From a phage, in NCBI GenBank assembly GCA_011911785.1, contig GCA_011911785.1_4084.1: a stretch of DNA of 64,000 bases, one strand, 5' to 3'. A model generated the notes under the pieces. It searched no databases, was not told the DNA's origin, and saw nothing but the letters and a program-made list of their open reading frames with translations. Of the stretch, positions 1 to 61,795 are shown piece after piece; within the stretch, counting starts at the first letter, position 1; every line of letters begins with the position of its first letter. Made by a program: the position numbers and the translations under genes.

Positions 1-86
1 CTGGAAATAAGTTTTTAAATGGAAGACATAAGTGTAGAATACAAAAGAATAATTTTTATCTTCCAAGTACAATAATCAGTGAAGAT

Positions 87-31464: not shown

Positions 31465-32464
<1,000 letters not shown>

Positions 32465-32474
32465 TTAAAAAAAG

Positions 32475-33412
<938 letters not shown>

Positions 33413-45588: not shown

Positions 45589-46013
45589 TGAGAACATACT
45601 ATAAACTATTACTCGCTCCCTTTTCATTTGGTATTTTATGTCTAATCGACGTATTATGCACAAAGTATTCGATTAGTACAGTACTTAATCCAGCGTGGTT
45701 TACTATTGCTATTGTTGGATACTGTCTGTGTGCGGGTATGGCTGCTCTTATTACGTTACTAACAATTGCAATGGATAATGACGAGAAAGATAAAAACAGC
45801 TTTGCGAATGACTTTGGGTGGAAAACGATCAGTTCAGTAACTATTGTACCATTTGCATTACTGACAGTTTATTTCATTCAAATGGGTGAGATCATTCCTG
45901 GTGTTGCATCATCAATACTTTTGTTAATGACAATAGTTGTTCGTTCACGACAAAATTCAATAATCCAAGAGTTTCTTGAACGAGAGGCAAGGGAAGGAAC
46001 AAAAACATCTTGA
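45588..46013 (+). CDS. multi-pass membrane protein (141 aa)
   Basis: Several hydrophobic helices. Confidence 0.55.
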   Translation: MRTYYKLLLAPFSFGILCLIDVLCTKYSISTVLNPAWFTIAIVGYCLCAGMAALITLLTIAMDNDEKDKNSFANDFGWKTISSVTIVPFALLTVYFIQMGEIIPGVASSILLLMTIVVRSRQNSIIQEFLEREAREGTKTS

Positions 46014-46038
46014 CATAAAATGTGTTAAGGGATATAAT
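46010..46038 (+). promoter_or_regulatory. sigma70-like promoter
   Basis: TTGACA, 17 nt, TATAAT. Confidence 0.6.
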
Positions 46039-46067: not shown

Positions 46068-46319
46068 ATGAATCTCGATGTGGTGAAATCATTAACTGAA
46101 GCTTTACAGAAAAATGAAGTCCAATGTCAAGAACTACGTGACACTATTAAGGTTGAATACGCTCGACTTCAAGGTATGTTACAAGAATCAGAATGGGTAG
46201 TTACTAAAAGCATCGAAGGTATCTACAAAGATATCGAATCAATGTTCAATAAGAAAAGTAAGATTGAATCAGATTCTTTTAATAAACGTAAAGAACTAAA
46301 TGCAGTTTTAGGTATCTAA
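46068..46319 (+). CDS. hypothetical protein (83 aa)
   Basis: RBS aaaggagggacacatATG. Confidence 0.6.
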   Translation: MNLDVVKSLTEALQKNEVQCQELRDTIKVEYARLQGMLQESEWVVTKSIEGIYKDIESMFNKKSKIESDSFNKRKELNAVLGI

Positions 46320-46323
46320 GTAC

Positions 46324-46353
46324 TTGACAGTACTGAAAATATAGGAGTACAAT
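46324..46353 (+). promoter_or_regulatory. sigma70-like promoter
   Basis: TTGACA, 18 nt, TACAAT. Confidence 0.5.
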
Positions 46354-46393
46354 GTACTCCTACTTTAATTGAAAACCAAAAAGGAAAAACACA

Positions 46394-46669
46394 ATGAACT
46401 CTATTCTAGTAGCAGTAAACCTGGTTGCTTCTCCGTCTTTTGATTTTAAAAAAGTTATTTCTAATAATCTTAAAAACATTTGCCCTGATACTGAACTTAC
46501 TTTTTGTGTATTCGATTCTGAAAAAGTTACTAAAGTAGATCTTAATTATCTCATGAACGATGTTAAGAGTGTTCAAGGTAAAACTAATTTAGATGTAGTA
46601 CGTTCTGTTGCTGACGACTACGATGATGCTCTGATCATTTCTGAATCTTTTGAAGAGGGTGTACTGTGA
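46394..46669 (+). CDS. hypothetical protein (91 aa)
   Basis: RBS aaaaggaaaaacacaATG. Confidence 0.55.
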   Translation: MNSILVAVNLVASPSFDFKKVISNNLKNICPDTELTFCVFDSEKVTKVDLNYLMNDVKSVQGKTNLDVVRSVADDYDDALIISESFEEGVL

Positions 46670-47133
46670 ATAAATTAGTTCAATGGGTAGAAAAAACTAA
46701 GGTCTATCCACCGTCTGAATTGTTTTTCCAAGCTGACTCTAAGCAAGCAAAGGCAGAAAAACGCGTTGTAGCCATTTGTGAAGACCTTTATAAACTTGAA
46801 GTACATACTCTTAGTGATATGCATACTGCGTTCACAGTGCTTGCAAACGCTGCTAAACGCGATATTCATAACATGAAGATGAAGTACATTGAAGAACTAT
46901 GCGGTGTGCTTGCATTCCATGTTGAATATTCGGTTAATGCATTAGATGCTATGCATAAGAAAGATCCCATCCTCCAAGCTTATTACAAAGGATGGTCAGT
47001 AAAAGCTAAAGAGCTAAAGGATGAAATCAAAGCATTACTTATTGAATCATTCCCTGATATTGATAAGGCAATGTTACTTTCGGAGATGCAGTACTATTAT
47101 GATTCTGAAAAAGATAAGGTACTTTCTAAGTAA
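46666..47133 (+). CDS. hypothetical protein (155 aa)
   Basis: ATGA overlap. Confidence 0.55.
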   Translation: MNKLVQWVEKTKVYPPSELFFQADSKQAKAEKRVVAICEDLYKLEVHTLSDMHTAFTVLANAAKRDIHNMKMKYIEELCGVLAFHVEYSVNALDAMHKKDPILQAYYKGWSVKAKELKDEIKALLIESFPDIDKAMLLSEMQYYYDSEKDKVLSK

Positions 47134-47530
47134 ACTAATTCTAAGTAAGCCCAAAGTACAAATACAAGCTCAAGAGGCTTTTGATATATACGAGGCATTG
47201 AATAATTGTAATTATGATTTACTCAATAAGCATTGTAGATCCAAAGTAGCTCTTGATTTGATTTGTGAACAAATGACAGTTAGTAACTTTTCAAAAAATT
47301 ACAACATTCACTATTTTGGATTTGATGGTTCACCTACAAAATTTGATTATAATTCTGCTTATGCAGAATTGGTTAATAGTAAGAAAAACATCAAAATAAC
47401 TGAATTCATTGCCTTGTATTTTTTCACAAAACTTGGTATAGTAACTGGATGTAAAGATCCCTTCCCATTTGATAAGGTATTGAAAGGAAGAGAACTTGAT
47501 ATATATTCCGCATTCTTAGATAAGGTGTAG
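47099..47530 (+). CDS. hypothetical protein (start uncertain)
   Basis: Tracked ORF 47021..47530 overlaps upstream gene; first plausible ATG 47099. Confidence 0.35.
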   Translation: MILKKIRYFLSKLILSKPKVQIQAQEAFDIYEALNNCNYDLLNKHCRSKVALDLICEQMTVSNFSKNYNIHYFGFDGSPTKFDYNSAYAELVNSKKNIKITEFIALYFFTKLGIVTGCKDPFPFDKVLKGRELDIYSAFLDKV

Positions 47531-47531
47531 A

Positions 47532-48029
47532 ATGACTACAGTATATGTTGACAAGCGTGTTGGATTATTGCTCACTGATTCACGAGTAACAACCACTACT
47601 GAGAGGTACTTTCTCGGATTATTCCCGTTAAAACCAAAAAAACAATATGGTGTAGTTACTCAAAAATCATTATACATTCATGATCGTCTGTTTAGTGCCG
47701 CAGGTTCAGTGAATGAAATCAATAAAGTATTGATGTATCTGATATATGGTGATATAGTACTACCCAGTAGAAAAGAGAACTGCCATTGTGTCTTGTTGTC
47801 CAAAGATTATTGTATTCACTTAGGAACAAAGAACGGGAAGTTTTTTAAGTACCTTGAGTTCATGCATGAGGAATATGTGTTCTTCATGGGAAGTGGTGGA
47901 GAGTACATGGTTGATGCTGCTGTGCATGAGAACCAAGACACACTACTTCAAAAAATATTCAGTACTTTCAAAGAGGTAAAAAACCACGATGAATATACTG
48001 ACGACAATATTAATGTATACCAATTTTGA
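47532..48029 (+). CDS. hypothetical protein (165 aa)
   Basis: ORF. Confidence 0.55.
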   Translation: MTTVYVDKRVGLLLTDSRVTTTTERYFLGLFPLKPKKQYGVVTQKSLYIHDRLFSAAGSVNEINKVLMYLIYGDIVLPSRKENCHCVLLSKDYCIHLGTKNGKFFKYLEFMHEEYVFFMGSGGEYMVDAAVHENQDTLLQKIFSTFKEVKNHDEYTDDNINVYQF

Positions 48030-48050
48030 TTTTTTCATTAGGAGAAGTAA

Positions 48051-49013
48051 GTGAAGAAACTAGACTTAAACGCAATTTCCGAAGAAGTACTGGATGAATG
48101 TTTTGCGAATGAAGAAGTCAATCCATTGGAAGCAATTGAACCATCAGAAGTTATTGAAGATGATATTCCACATAAAGTTCGTAGTAAAAGTAACATTAGT
48201 CTCAAGCGTCCAGTAGGTGTGACTAATGAATCCATCATCGAAGAGATTCGTGCTGGAATTAATGTAAAAAAGAACACTGACCTATTACTTCGTTATAACT
48301 ATGGTATGATCGTTGATGTTGCTTCAAAGTGTACATGTTATATTCCGTTTGAAGATAAAATTGCATATGGTGTAGAAGGTTTTATGCGAGCACTTAAAAC
48401 CTTTGATCTTAGTAAGAATGTCAAATTCATTACATATGCAACAACGTCCGTTTATATGACTATGTATAATGAAAGTTCAGATGCAAATTACATGGTGTAC
48501 TTACCACGTTATATGAGCGTTCATAACATCCAAGTACGTCGATTTAATGAATCATATCAACGTGAACACGGTAAGCGACCTACACCAGAATTAATCTCTG
48601 AGAGTACTGGTATCGAGCTTCAGCACGTTAAGAACTGTTTGTTATACCAGAATGCATATACGACTCTTGATGCACAACTGGGTTCAGATTCAGACGGAAC
48701 CCTTGGGGATATTCTGAGTTCATCTGCTCGTGATTATAACCTTAATGTTGATAGCATTTGTAATCCATTACGTTATGCAATCACAGAAATCATTGACGAA
48801 TTGAGTACTAAAGAACGAGAAATTATCATGCGTGTTCATGGTCTGGGGGATTACAAAGCAGAAACCCTTCGTGAAATTTCTGATAATGGATATGTTGATG
48901 ATAAAGGAAACATTGTTAAGTCCCGTTCATCTGTGCACCGAAAATATAGTGAAGCTATTCAAAAGCTTAAAAAAATAGTACTTGAAAAAGGGTACGAATA
49001 CGAAGATTTCTAA
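48051..49013 (+). CDS. RNA polymerase sigma factor, sigma70 family
   Basis: Region 2-like GFMRALKTFDLSKNVKFITYATTSVYMTM (cf. GLMRAVEKFD...FSTYATWWIRQ); region 4-like HTH STKEREIIMRVHGLGDYKAETLREIS. Confidence 0.8.
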   Translation: MKKLDLNAISEEVLDECFANEEVNPLEAIEPSEVIEDDIPHKVRSKSNISLKRPVGVTNESIIEEIRAGINVKKNTDLLLRYNYGMIVDVASKCTCYIPFEDKIAYGVEGFMRALKTFDLSKNVKFITYATTSVYMTMYNESSDANYMVYLPRYMSVHNIQVRRFNESYQREHGKRPTPELISESTGIELQHVKNCLLYQNAYTTLDAQLGSDSDGTLGDILSSSARDYNLNVDSICNPLRYAITEIIDELSTKEREIIMRVHGLGDYKAETLREISDNGYVDDKGNIVKSRSSVHRKYSEAIQKLKKIVLEKGYEYEDF

Positions 49014-49020
49014 AGAAAAA

Positions 49021-49047
49021 GGGTTGACTTAGGTCAGCCCTTTTTTT
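49021..49047 (+). terminator. intrinsic terminator (composite module type)
   Basis: GGGTTGAC-TTAG-GTCAGCCC hairpin followed by TTTTTTT; TTGACT hexamer in 5' arm. Confidence 0.7.
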
Positions 49048-49571
49048 ATGGGACAAAATGGATGTTCATGATACAATGATATTGTACAATTCTGTTGGCA
49101 TGGATGACATGAACCTGATCCACTCGAAAATGTAGAGGGCAGTTGAGCAGTCCAGCAGTGCGAAGTGCAGAAGAAACCCGTCAGATGTGGGCATATTATG
49201 AACCCCTCACGGCAATGCGGCACTATAAAGAACCACGTTAGGATGGCTGGTGGTTCCTCGATAGACATATAAGGATAACACCTTACGAATTATCTAAGGG
49301 AGAGTTATCAAATTTTGTACAGGAAAGTTGCGTCCAAAATTTGAGTACTCACATTAAGTATTTGATTGCATAGATACTTAATGAAGATACACTATGTTTA
49401 AAAGTGTAGACCGTCATATGAAACTGAAGTAGAGAGAAACAGGATGACCCGCTTTCGTACTCATTAAGAGTAATCTTCAATGCAATAGCTCTGATACCAT
49501 CAGCGTCAAATTCCCCTCCCAGCGGGGGGAAGAAAAATCCCTTCCTCAAATCCCGTCAATATTAAAAGTCC
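49048..49571 (+). ncRNA. GC-richer ORF-free island (candidate structured RNA or foreign insert)
   Basis: About 520 bp with no convincing ORF, visibly higher GC than surroundings, several G/C-rich potential stems. Confidence 0.3.
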
Positions 49572-49600
49572 TTGACAGTTATTAATCATTCGCGTAGAAT
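49572..49600 (+). promoter_or_regulatory. sigma70-like promoter
   Basis: TTGACA, 17 nt, TAGAAT. Confidence 0.6.
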
Positions 49601-49664: not shown

Positions 49665-49874
49665 ATGAATACTACAATCTTTTTAATTGTTGCTCTTTCA
49701 ATGCAATCCGGTGTACAAATTACCCCTATGAATTCATTAAACCAATGTTTTTCTGTACGTGATAGTACATACGAACAAGTAAACAAAAATTCTTGGATGA
49801 CAGTTAGTGAAGAACAAATGTGGTGTTACAAAAGTGATATTAAAGCGAAATTTATTGTAGGACAAACTCAATGA
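49665..49874 (+). CDS. putative small secreted protein (69 aa)
   Basis: N-terminal signal-peptide-like segment. Confidence 0.45.
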   Translation: MNTTIFLIVALSMQSGVQITPMNSLNQCFSVRDSTYEQVNKNSWMTVSEEQMWCYKSDIKAKFIVGQTQ

Positions 49875-50065
49875 TTTATCGAGTGAGGTTTGAAGTTTGT
49901 AAAATTGTTTTCAATAGCAAAGGTGAAGCCTCACTCGATGAAACTCTGCACATATATAATCTCCAATTTAGGGCAAAAACAGAAGCTGATGCATTAGTAA
50001 ACATGTTTAATTTCAACCATAGGTGCGGGTATCATTTAGTAAGAGTTATAGAGGTTAAAAAGTAA
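49871..50065 (+). CDS. hypothetical protein (64 aa)
   Basis: ATGA overlap. Confidence 0.45.
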   Translation: MIYRVRFEVCKIVFNSKGEASLDETLHIYNLQFRAKTEADALVNMFNFNHRCGYHLVRVIEVKK

Positions 50066-50095
50066 TTACCGAATGCAGTGAAGAGGAAATCTAAA

Positions 50096-50890
50096 ATGAG
50101 TACTATCGATGAATTGATTCGACGGAATTCAAAATATTACCAACCATCAGAAATTGTGGATAATATTACTAAATCTGAGTTTGGACCTAATACTCGCAAA
50201 CTCATTCATGTAATGTCTCGTGACGGCTTTAAATGTGATTGTTGTGGTGAATCCAATGTAGTATTCACTTTACATAAGCACAGTACTAAAGAACGTTATA
50301 AATTCAGACCTTATGTACTTAAAGGGAAACGTCTTGTACGCATGACGTTAGACCATAATGTACTGGACTGTCTCCAGGGTGGTAATGATAAAGAAAACAT
50401 GACTGCACTGTGTGAGGATTGTAATGCCTTACGCCAGCATAAGTTCGCAGAGTACAGCGAGTTTAAGTACTGGTATCATAATGCAGACCGTTCAATTGAG
50501 CCTAATGTAAACTACTGCTTCATTGAGTACATCAAGAATGCAAAAGATACATACATTCTTAAATCCATGTCTCCGATTACAGTGTTTCCTGAGAATCTAT
50601 TCAGTACTATGGAGCGTGATTTTAAGCGTGGTATCATCAATGCATTCAAGCACTTAGACAAAGGTATCAAACACTTTGATGTTGAATGTTTAAATTCAGG
50701 TATGAATCGTTTAGTACAAATTTACATGAAATCGTTTATAGGTATTGACAGTGCACGACTACCAGTATATAATTACTTTATTGAAAGCGTAGAAGGTGAA
50801 TCACTTCGTGATTATGGTGAAAGATTTAATAAGAAAGTCTTCACTGCAATAGCAAATGAGATTCATTACTATAAACCATATGTAATTTAA
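50096..50890 (+). CDS. HNH endonuclease (possible homing endonuclease)
   Basis: Start refined to ATG 50096 (RBS gaggaaatctaaaATG); CDCCGE...LDHNVLD...GGND...N...LCEDCNALR. Confidence 0.6.
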   Translation: MSTIDELIRRNSKYYQPSEIVDNITKSEFGPNTRKLIHVMSRDGFKCDCCGESNVVFTLHKHSTKERYKFRPYVLKGKRLVRMTLDHNVLDCLQGGNDKENMTALCEDCNALRQHKFAEYSEFKYWYHNADRSIEPNVNYCFIEYIKNAKDTYILKSMSPITVFPENLFSTMERDFKRGIINAFKHLDKGIKHFDVECLNSGMNRLVQIYMKSFIGIDSARLPVYNYFIESVEGESLRDYGERFNKKVFTAIANEIHYYKPYVI

Positions 50891-51487: not shown

Positions 51488-51532
51488 GTTTATATCAAAC
51501 GAAATCCACTTTAACAAATGATAGGAAATATT

Positions 51533-51811
51533 ATGTCTTTTACCAAAGAAGAACGTGACCTTATTAAAAAAGCAATCTGGTTTTATGCTAATGAAGGGGA
51601 GTGCGATGAAGAAAAAGCACGTGAACTGTGTAATATCCTTGAGCAGAAACAAGAACTGAAAGTGTATCGTATCCGTGTTTTGGATGATGGGGATCGTATT
51701 GTCCTAGCTGAAACAAAAGAAGAAGCAGAACAAATCTTCACTGATAAAAACGAAAATCCACATTGGATGGAAGAAGTCTGTGAAGTAAAAAAAGGTACTT
51801 ATATCGATTGA
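51533..51811 (+). CDS. hypothetical protein (92 aa)
   Basis: Start refined to ATG 51533. Confidence 0.55.
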   Translation: MSFTKEERDLIKKAIWFYANEGECDEEKARELCNILEQKQELKVYRIRVLDDGDRIVLAETKEEAEQIFTDKNENPHWMEEVCEVKKGTYID

Positions 51812-61735: not shown

Positions 61736-61769
61736 AGGTTGACTTCGGTCAGCCTTTTTTGCTATAATA
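61736..61769 (+). promoter_or_regulatory. composite terminator-promoter module
   Basis: Hairpin AGGTTGAC-TTCG-GTCAGCCT then TTTTTT; TTGACT in 5' arm; TATAAT at 61764..61769. Confidence 0.65.
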
Positions 61770-61795
61770 CTCACATAACCTAAAGGAGAAACTCT

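What the first reader, a model, noticed from the sequence alone, without database searches (positions are those of the whole stretch)
48051..49013. Phage-encoded sigma70-family sigma factor
The 320-aa ORF has recognisable region 2 and region 4 segments. The many promoters in the window look like host sigma70 consensus, so this factor may drive a different promoter class (middle or late) not represented here, or may replace the host factor.
Basis: partly seen in the sequence, partly recalled or inferred. Interest (0 to 1): 0.55.

Follow-up and report, generated by a model that had tools for sequence, protein, structure and literature searches.

The report
Jumbo-phage sigma factor, already annotated
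The ORF is a real sigma-70-family factor of a RaK2-like jumbo coliphage, already annotated in GenBank and untested experimentally; it probably steers host RNA polymerase to a distinct middle promoter class, one copy of which sits just downstream and drives an undescribed structured RNA.

Summary
Window 48051-49013 (+) encodes a 320-aa sigma-70-family protein with regions 2, 3 and 4. It is 99.7% identical to gene A4_181 of Escherichia phage A4 (Asteriusvirus), which GenBank already labels a sigma factor. [quoted passage not shown] No experiment on it was found.

- Core-binding and A(-11)-pocket residues are kept. The tryptophan dyad, Q437/T440, H455/E458 and most -35-reading residues are replaced. 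A family-conserved insertion, predicted as a beta-hairpin, sits in the region-4.2 helix-turn-helix.
- The gene lies in an early region full of perfect host-type promoters.
- Genome-wide there is a separate promoter class, GrGACA-N16-TGnTAtAAT (21 sites against 0.4 expected). It precedes replication genes, the gp55-like late-sigma gene, a tRNA gene and four paralogous RNA genes.
- Its -35 differs between phage clades, as does the sigma recognition helix.

I infer, at about 45%, an early-to-middle-to-late cascade in which this sigma reads that class.

Side finding: the 480 nt just downstream of the gene belong to a covariation-supported structured RNA family with no Rfam match.

The parts
46010..46038 (+). 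Host-type (class E) promoter, TTGACA-17-TATAAT, 12/12 match, about 2 kb upstream of the sigma gene at the head of the same + strand gene string
46324..46353 (+). Second host-type promoter, TTGACA-18-TACAAT (11/12), upstream of the sigma operon
48040..48044 (+). Ribosome-binding site AGGAG, 6 nt before the GTG start
48051..49013 (+). Sigma-70-family sigma factor gene (320 aa), ortholog of A4_181
48051..48224 (+). N-terminal acidic region (residues 1-58). Residues 1-48 have net charge -8. The MKKLDLNxIxEEVLDECF motif is family-conserved. The model predicts disorder. It may be a region-1.1-like element (inference).
48225..48476 (+). Sigma domain 2 (residues 59-142). The core-binding signature D102..G107..G110..A114..F118 D119 is kept, as are K125, F126 and Y129 (= K426, F427, Y430). 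Replaced: W433/W434 -> T132/S133, Q437 -> M136, T440 -> Y139.
48507..48725 (+). Sigma domain 3 (residues 153-225). H455 -> Y154 and E458 -> V157, inside the conserved PRYMSV motif.
48771..48989 (+). Sigma domain 4 (residues 241-313). The recognition helix S291-R-S-S-V-H-R297 corresponds to sigma70 T583-R-E-R-I-R-Q589.
48885..48920 (+). Family-conserved insertion NGYVDDKGNIVK in the turn of the region-4.2 helix-turn-helix (D283 and G286 invariant). It is predicted as a beta-hairpin at pLDDT about 85.
49021..49047 (+). Intrinsic terminator after the sigma gene: GGGTTGAC-TTAG-GTCAGCCC followed by T7
   Evidence: read directly; the same feature is annotated as a terminator in phage UE-S1
49050..49077 (+). 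Class M promoter, GGGACA-N16-TACAAT with TGn extended -10. It is the candidate target of the phage sigma.
49085..49561 (+). About 480-nt structured non-coding RNA, one of four paralogs per genome, transcribed from the class M promoter
31740..31766 (+). Second class M promoter in the window, 10 nt upstream of tRNA-Ser (31777-31866)
49572..49600 (+). Host-type promoter, TTGACA-17-TAGAAT, for the next small genes

Best explanation
The gene encodes the RpoD-like sigma factor shared by all RaK2-like ('group 2') jumbo phages, which carry no RNA polymerase of their own. It is transcribed early by host sigma70 holoenzyme from consensus TTGACA/TATAAT promoters. The protein then binds host core RNA polymerase through its conserved region 2.2 and region 4. 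Most likely it redirects the polymerase to the phage's middle promoter class, tGrGACA-N16-(g)TGnTAtAAT. That class precedes genes for DNA replication and nucleotide metabolism, the gp55-like late sigma, at least one tRNA gene, and four paralogous structured RNAs. The result would be a cascade: host sigma70, then this sigma, then the gp55-like sigma. Shown: sigma-family membership, orthology, an early-type genomic context, and the existence and statistics of the promoter classes. Inferred: binding to core polymerase, the timing, and above all the assignment of class M to this sigma.
For: Family membership.
Orthologs are annotated as sigma in 121Q, PBECO4, RaK2, GAP32, CBB, BF and XaC1.
No phage RNA polymerase exists in this group, and sigma is its hallmark (PMC7824862).
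The core-binding and melting scaffold is kept: D102, G107, G110, A114, F118, D119, K125, F126 and Y129 correspond to sigma70 D403, G408, G411, A415, F419, E420, K426, F427 and Y430.
DNA-reading residues are changed: W433T, W434S, Q437M, T440Y, H455Y, E458V, E585S, R586S, R588H and Q589R, while R584 is kept. An insertion conserved across the family interrupts the helix-turn-helix. The roles of these sigma70 residues are taken from PMC2613000.
Early context: perfect host-type promoters at 46010 and 46324, and 17 such sites in the window against 0.59 expected.
Class M in the A4 genome: 21 sites on the + strand, 0 on the - strand, against 0.4 expected. The spacer is always 16. Sites lie upstream of SSB, primase, exonuclease, topoisomerase II, the DNA-polymerase operon, PNK, Clp, the gp55-like sigma and tRNA-Ser (with annotation).
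The gp55-like late sigma is confirmed, and TATAAATA is avoided genome-wide, 13 against 59 expected.
No AsiA homolog was found.
The class M -35 is clade-specific although the hosts are all Enterobacterales, whose sigma70 region 4.2 I take to be the same (from memory, not checked here). Asteriusvirus has GrGACA. The GAP32, BF and Yen9-04 clade has GrAAC(A/G) (compare TGAAACG in CBB and GAP32, PMC5259590). The residue aligned with sigma70 R588, which influences -33, is H in the first clade and S in the second, and R292 becomes K.
The single RaK2 example reads TGAACA, and there R297 is Y.
Against: No experiment links this sigma to any promoter.
Class M scores well as a host sigma70 promoter: GACA gives 4/6 at -35, and it has TGn and a perfect -10. 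Host holoenzyme could therefore use it, with or without a phage activator.
The phage sigma lacks the sigma70 residues known to read TGn (H455, E458) and -12 (Q437, T440), yet class M keeps TGnTATAAT.
The clade co-variation rests on two or three clades, and on a single promoter for RaK2.
PA5oct, a relative, was reported with only TTGAC/TATAATA promoters.
Confidence: 0.5

Rival explanations
1. Class M promoters are extended -10 promoters read by host sigma70, possibly helped or timed by a separate phage DNA-binding protein that recognises the G-rich -35 region. The phage sigma would then serve another, still unidentified and perhaps small, set of promoters.
For: Class M keeps a canonical TGnTATAAT and 4/6 of the -35. 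The phage sigma has lost the sigma70 residues that read TGn and -12. HTH regulators are encoded near the sigma gene in relatives: the GAP32_488 HTH protein and the CBB_511 regulator.
Against: k-mer and dyad enrichment in 260 upstream regions turned up only the E, E1, M and L motifs, so no orphan class is left for the sigma. In the GAP32 clade the -35 falls to 3/6 for sigma70 yet stays strictly conserved at spacer 16.
Confidence: 0.25
2. The protein is a general stand-in for host sigma70. It recognises the same TTGACA/TATAAT (class E and E1) promoters and keeps phage transcription running when host sigma70 is inactivated or limiting.
For: Its best profile and structure matches are group 1/2 sigmas. 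Almost all phage promoters other than the late class carry TATAAT. The A(-11) pocket residues are conserved.
Against: Four of five region-4.2 base-reading positions differ from sigma70, and the HTH carries an insertion. The tryptophan dyad and Q437/T440 are lost. No anti-sigma70 (AsiA) homolog was detected. Class E promoters match the host consensus perfectly, as expected for host sigma70.
Confidence: 0.15
3. The protein acts mainly as a competitor or decoy. It occupies host core polymerase to shut off host transcription without directing specific initiation.
For: The melting determinants W433/W434 are missing. The N-terminus is strongly acidic.
Against: The recognition helix and the HTH insertion are conserved across genera with sigma identity down to about 33-35% (R297 and Y299 in all but RaK2, D283 and G286 throughout). 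Region 3 is conserved too, which argues for retained DNA binding. Group 3 sigmas also lack the tryptophan dyad and still initiate (my own knowledge).
Confidence: 0.05

Closest known systems
RpoD-like sigma factor of RaK2-like / 'group 2.2' jumbo phages (A4_181, 121Q gp167, PBECO4, Sharanji RpoD, RaK2 ORF244, GAP32_490, CBB_513)
   Same: This is the same gene. It is 99.7% identical to A4_181, about 73% to 121Q/PBECO4, 42% to RaK2 and 33-35% to GAP32, CBB and BF. It has the same length, the same N-terminal motif and the same HTH insertion.
   Different: There is nothing substantive. The window comes from a close relative of A4, not the deposited isolate (blocks of 96-99% identity with indels).
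E. coli sigmaS / sigma70 (group 1/2 sigma factors)
   Same: It shares the sigma2-sigma3-sigma4 architecture, the region 2.2 core-binding signature, the TYA motif with Y430, and region 4.1. It has about 23% identity over 200 residues.
   Different: It has no region 1.1 or non-conserved region. It lacks W433/W434, Q437, T440, H455, E458, E585, R586, R588 and Q589. It carries an insertion in the 4.2 HTH turn (about 8 residues on the A1/hhalign reading, 11 in the A4 alignment with RpoD). NCBIfam scores are far below the equivalog cutoffs (92.8 against 354).
Bacillus phage SPO1 gp28 (middle-gene sigma) and the SPO1 sigma cascade
   Same: The logic is the same: an early phage gene product replaces the host sigma on host core polymerase to switch to middle genes, and a further phage sigma handles late genes (my own knowledge; the SPO1 cascade is summarised in the abstract of PMC13401047).
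   Different: gp28 is a small, highly divergent sigma whose promoters are unlike host ones. Here the sigma is RpoD-like and the candidate promoters keep a host-like -10. There is no sequence relationship beyond the family.
T4 middle transcription (MotA/AsiA sigma appropriation) and T4 gp55 late sigma
   Same: Middle promoters keep the -10 and swap the -35, they drive replication genes and the late-sigma gene, and late promoters are TATAAATA with a gp55-like sigma.
   Different: No AsiA was detected. The substitute element sits at true -35 spacing (16 bp), not at -30 like a MotA box. The phage brings a whole sigma instead of remodelling sigma70.

Membership tests
Sigma-70 family (Pfam Sigma70_r2/r3/r4; TIGR02937) | Region 2 (core binding, -10 recognition and melting) | tested here: met
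   Pfam r2 scores 5e-5 (23.4 bits, just under the cutoff of 24). hhalign against RpoD 377-576 gives probability 99.2%. The DxIxxGxxGLxxAxxxFD and TYA motifs are conserved.
Sigma-70 family (Pfam Sigma70_r2/r3/r4; TIGR02937) | Region 3 | tested here: met
   Pfam Sigma70_r3 scores 2.9e-11, 43.7 bits against a cutoff of 25.3.
Sigma-70 family (Pfam Sigma70_r2/r3/r4; TIGR02937) | Region 4 helix-turn-helix | tested here: inconclusive
   Pfam r4 matches only residues 248-278 (17.8 bits against a cutoff of 24.1). The recognition helix follows a conserved insertion in the turn. AF2 predicts helix, beta-hairpin, helix at pLDDT about 85. The domain is present but non-canonical.
Sigma-70 family (Pfam Sigma70_r2/r3/r4; TIGR02937) | Binds core RNA polymerase and confers promoter-specific initiation | not testable with these tools
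   This needs biochemistry. No published experiment was found.
Group 1 primary sigma (RpoD equivalog) | Region 1.1/1.2 plus the non-conserved region, and a score above the RpoD equivalog cutoff | tested here: not met
   The best RpoD-type NCBIfam scores are 60-93 bits against cutoffs of 354-1020. The alignment covers only RpoD 377-576.
Group 1 primary sigma (RpoD equivalog) | Conserved DNA-reading residues W433, W434, Q437, T440, H455, E458, R584, E585, R588 | tested here: not met
   Only R584 (R292) is kept. The others are T, S, M, Y, Y, V, S and H (residue roles from PMC2613000).
Jumbo-phage 'group 2' RpoD-like sigma (Iyer et al. 2021; PHROG 351) | Orthology with the sigma of RaK2-, GAP32- and 121Q-like phages, in a phage that lacks its own RNA polymerase | tested here: met
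   PHROG 351 scores 2.4e-50. tblastn gives full-length hits in 71 records. The profile search resolves a discrete clade of about 19 clusters before cellular sigmas begin. No RNA polymerase is annotated in A4.
T4 gp55-type late sigma | Similarity to gp55 family profiles | tested here: not met
   This ORF hits only PHROG 351. The gp55-like protein is a different gene, A4_588 (PHROG 12791 and 234).

The most novel reading that the evidence does not exclude
This sigma, through a region-4.2 helix-turn-helix interrupted by a beta-hairpin, reads a clade-specific -35 element (GrGACA in Asteriusvirus, GrAACr in the GAP32 clade) at a fixed 16-bp spacing. It thereby runs a middle regulon that includes the late-sigma gene, a tRNA gene and four paralogous copies of an undescribed 480-nt structured RNA. 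One of those copies is kept directly 3' of the sigma gene from Asteriusvirus to RaK2.
Probability: 0.4. Interest if true: 0.65.

Novelty: already known. Interest (0 to 1): 0.3.

Why it matters
The sigma itself adds nothing new: it is annotated and is a recognised marker of this jumbo-phage group. What matters is that its function has never been tested, and this analysis turns it into a concrete experiment. There is a defined candidate promoter class with exact coordinates, a predicted three-step sigma cascade, and specific residue-to-base predictions (H296/S with base 3 of the -35, R297 with base 1). Separately, the conserved multi-copy structured RNA under these promoters is a candidate new large RNA class in phages that are being developed for therapy.

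Tried and rejected
- The second 'sigma-70 family' gene annotated in A4 (A4_187, window ORF 51518-51811) has no Pfam hit, and its PHROG is of unknown function. The label is unsupported.
- The A4_529 'putative sigma 54' is a ribosome hibernation factor (Ribosomal_S30AE).
- AsiA-type sigma appropriation: T4 AsiA finds 1173 T4-like records but nothing in A4 at E below 1. MotA was not tested.
- Rfam search of the downstream non-coding stretch, and of a GAP32 copy, gave only chance-level hits.
- Single-sequence folding of the RNA is not significant on its own (z = -1.43). Only covariation supports it.
- The four ncRNAs reported for phage PA5oct could not be connected to this RNA.
- Sigma-RNA adjacency is not universal: it is absent in GAP32 and XaC1.
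- Literature searches found no transcriptomic or biochemical study of an Asteriusvirus sigma.
- The neighbours of the sigma gene (46068-48029, 49665-50065) gave only unknown-function PHROGs.

Full report
**1. Observation**

The ORF at 48051-49013 (+) exists as described: GTG start, 320 aa. An AGGAG ribosome-binding site lies 6 nt upstream.

Profile searches place the protein in the sigma-70 family:
- Pfam region 3 is above its gathering score. Region 2 is 0.6 bit below its cutoff. Region 4 matches only in part.
- PHROG 351 'RNA polymerase sigma factor' scores 2.4e-50.
- Many NCBIfam RpoD, RpoS, SigB and FliA models score 1e-26 to 1e-10, all far below their equivalog cutoffs.
- phmmer against PDB sequences finds SigA, RpoD and RpoS chains at 3e-18 to 1e-13.
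- hhalign of the family alignment against E. coli RpoD aligns residues 77-276 with sigma70 377-576 at 99.2% probability.
- An AF2 model (mean pLDDT 66.6) has confident sigma2, sigma3 and sigma4 domains. Its best Foldseek matches are sigmaS and sigmaA in initiation complexes.

**2. Provenance and prior knowledge**

The window is a close relative of Escherichia phage A4 (ON286972.1, Asteriusvirus, 355.5 kb, host E. coli LF82). Blocks are 96-99% identical with a few indels. The protein is 99.7% identical to A4_181, annotated 'sigma-70 family RNA polymerase sigma factor'.

Full-length orthologs are annotated as sigma factors in 121Q and PBECO4 (about 73%), RaK2 (42%), and GAP32, CBB, BF and XaC1 (33-35%). 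A search of 1.8 billion representative proteins shows a discrete phage clade of about 19 clusters at 50% identity, before the 60,000 cellular sigmas begin.

[quoted passage not shown] The CBB and Sharanji papers discuss the gene (PMC5259590, PMC11895373). I found no experiment on it. The finding as stated is therefore already known as an annotation, and its function is untested.

**3. Anatomy**

- Residues 1-58 are acidic (net -8 over residues 1-48). They carry a family-conserved MKKLDLNxIxEEVLDECF motif and are predicted disordered.
- Region 2.2 keeps the core-binding signature: D102, G107, G110, A114, F118 and D119 correspond to sigma70 D403, G408, G411, A415, F419 and E420.
- Region 2.3 keeps K125, F126 and Y129 (K426, F427, Y430).
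- Replaced in regions 2.3, 2.4 and 3.0: W433/W434 become T132/S133, R436 becomes Y, Q437 becomes M136, T440 becomes Y139, H455 becomes Y154 and E458 becomes V157.
- In region 4.2, a family-conserved insertion (N279-K290, with D283 and G286 invariant) sits in the turn of the helix-turn-helix. It is predicted as a beta-hairpin at pLDDT about 85.
- The recognition helix reads S-R292-S-S-V-H296-R297, against sigma70 T-R584-E-R-I-R588-Q589.

The roles of these sigma70 residues (-31: R584; -33: E585 and R588; -12: Q437 and T440; TGn: H455 and E458; melting: Y425, F427, Y430, W433, W434) are taken from Hook-Barnard and Hinton 2007 (PMC2613000). The pattern is a conserved scaffold with changed DNA-reading surfaces, which is what an alternative-specificity sigma would show.

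**4. Context**

The gene lies in a + strand string of small unknown genes. This string is headed by perfect host-type promoters at 46010-46038 and 46324-46353. The window holds 17 TTGAC-N18-TAnAAT sites, all on the + strand, against 0.59 expected. An 8-bp hairpin plus T7 terminator follows the stop codon at 49021-49047. From this I infer that host sigma70 transcribes the gene early.

**5. Promoter classes across the A4 genome** (Python on the fetched record)

| Class | Motif | Observed | Expected | Location |
|---|---|---|---|---|
| E | TTGACn-16..18-TAnAAT | 70 | 8.9 | concentrated at 0-20 kb and 280-340 kb |
| E1 | AAAAAGTACTTGCA-N16/17-TATAAT | 25 | 1.9 | an array at 6-25 kb |
| M | tGrGACA-N16-TAtAAT with TGn | 21 on +, 0 on - | 0.4 | spread over roughly 25-321 kb of the record |
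| L | TATAAATA | 13 | 59 | mostly intergenic |

- In class M the spacer is always 16.
- TATAAATA is depleted genome-wide, which suggests it is avoided.
- Class M sites precede SSB (two sites), primase, exonuclease, topoisomerase II, the DNA-polymerase operon, PNK, Clp and ClpA-like genes, a nudix hydrolase, tRNA-Ser and the gp55-like late sigma A4_588 (annotation; PHROG 12791 and 234).
- In the window, class M occurs twice against 0.08 expected: at 31740-31766 before tRNA-Ser, and at 49050-49077 directly after the sigma terminator.
- The CBB paper described an equivalent 'divergent RpoD-like' class (TGAAACG plus TATA) before DNA-synthesis genes and before its gp55-like gene.

**6. Linking the sigma to class M (inference)**

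Three lines point this way:
- (a) No other orphan motif was found for the sigma to use.
- (b) No AsiA homolog was found, so a T4-style route to middle promoters is unlikely.
- (c) The class M -35 differs between clades even though all hosts are Enterobacterales, whose sigma70 region 4.2 I take to be the same (from memory, not checked here).
  - It is GrGACA with TG(A/C) in Asteriusvirus.
  - It is GrAAC(A/G) with TGG in GAP32, BF, Yen9-04 and related contigs, always at spacer 16.
  - The sigma residue aligned with R588, which influences base -33, is H in the first clade and S in the second, and R292 becomes K.
  - One RaK2 promoter reads TGAACA, and in RaK2 R297 is Y.

Two points count against it. 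Class M is also a good sigma70 extended -10 promoter on paper. The phage sigma lacks the sigma70 residues that read TGn and -12. I put the class M assignment at about 45%. The broader statement that this is a functional sigma redirecting host core polymerase to phage promoters I put above 90%.

**7. Side finding: a structured RNA**

The 588 bp between the sigma gene and the next ORF are non-coding. They are one of four paralogs in A4, at record positions 65.1, 125.7, 205.6 and 321.0 kb. The paralogs are 70-80% identical, and each lies directly behind a class M promoter.

An exact 25-base core pattern finds 15 further copies in IMG/VR jumbo-phage contigs and one Citrobacter assembly contig that looks phage-derived. 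blastn finds the element in 72 phage records, with 4-5 copies per genome in most. These are the same genera that carry the sigma.

Structure evidence from a 19-sequence alignment:
- RNAalifold predicts 79 pairs in 16 helices, and 45 pairs show compensatory double changes.
- 97.2% of cells are paired, against 81% in shuffles and about 42% when partners are slid.
- The covariation score is 0.453, against 0.05-0.07 in the slid controls.
- Most copies carry an internal terminator-like hairpin that itself covaries. The window copy lacks it.

There is no Rfam match. The UE-S1 record marks part of the element as 'repeat_region', and RaK2 annotates a 68-aa ORF over it. One copy sits just 3' of the sigma gene in Asteriusvirus and in RaK2-like phages, but not in GAP32 or XaC1. 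Its function is unknown.

**8. Verdict**

The gene itself is already known. The testable promoter assignment and the RNA family are the parts worth follow-up.

Noticed in passing
window 49085-49561 (+); paralogs at ON286972.1 65100-65650, 125708-126365 and 205572-206180; loci L011-L026 and L033: An undescribed family of about 480-nt structured RNAs, with 4-5 paralogs per genome in 72 RaK2-like jumbo phage records. Each copy examined lies behind a class M or related promoter. Of 79 predicted pairs, 45 have compensatory changes, and 97% of cells pair against about 42% in slid controls. There is no Rfam hit. One copy is conserved just 3' of the sigma gene in Asteriusvirus and RaK2.
   Followed up: partly
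window 31740-31766 (+): A class M promoter (TGGACA-N16-TATAAT with TGn) lies 10 nt upstream of tRNA-Ser(tga) at 31777-31866. The window carries six tRNA genes between 31777 and 35217.
   Followed up: partly
window 50078-50890 (+): An intact 270-aa HNH endonuclease (PHROG 35175, 1.4e-148). In the deposited A4 genome the same locus lacks about 520 bp and is annotated as three small hypothetical ORFs. HNH genes also lie near two other RNA copies and next to the GAP32 sigma gene.
   Followed up: partly
window 51518-51811 (+) (= A4_187): GenBank labels this 92-97-aa ORF 'sigma-70 family RNA polymerase sigma factor'. It has no Pfam hit and belongs to a PHROG of unknown function, so the label looks unsupported.
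   Followed up: yes
whole window, and the A4 genome: The palindrome AGTACT, often as CAGTACTG, is 7.7-fold over-represented: 162 against 21 expected in the window and 922 against 120 in the genome. Most copies lie inside genes. It also sits immediately 5' of many -10 boxes (AGTACTGTATAAT at 32491, 32900, 51475 and 62702). Six GC-rich 6-mer palindromes (CCGCGG, CCCGGG, CCATGG, CAGCTG, AGGCCT, AGCGCT) are completely absent from the genome.
   Followed up: no
window 61737-61775 (+), and a decayed copy at 49021-49047; A4 record about 329.2, 333.5, 336.7 and 338.7 kb: Fused terminator-promoter modules. The hairpin GGTTGACTTCGGTCAGCC plus a T-run ends one transcript, while its TTGACT serves as the -35 for a TATAAT 17 nt downstream.
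   Followed up: no
ON286972.1 6-25 kb (outside the window): An array of about 25 near-identical units: A-tract, GTACTTGCA, N16/17, GTATAAT, GTTTTACATCGAGG, a G/C hairpin, an SD sequence and a small ORF. This class E1 is probably made of immediate-early promoters with structured 5' leaders.
   Followed up: no
A4 genome; window 60141: The T4-type late motif TATAAATA is strongly avoided genome-wide (13 against 59 expected). The copies that remain are mostly intergenic. There is one copy in the window.
   Followed up: partly
ON286972.1 4139-6138 (outside the window): A 2-kb stretch with no annotated gene lies behind another GGGACA-N16-TATAAT site. It is not homologous to the RNA family and was not examined further.
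   Followed up: no
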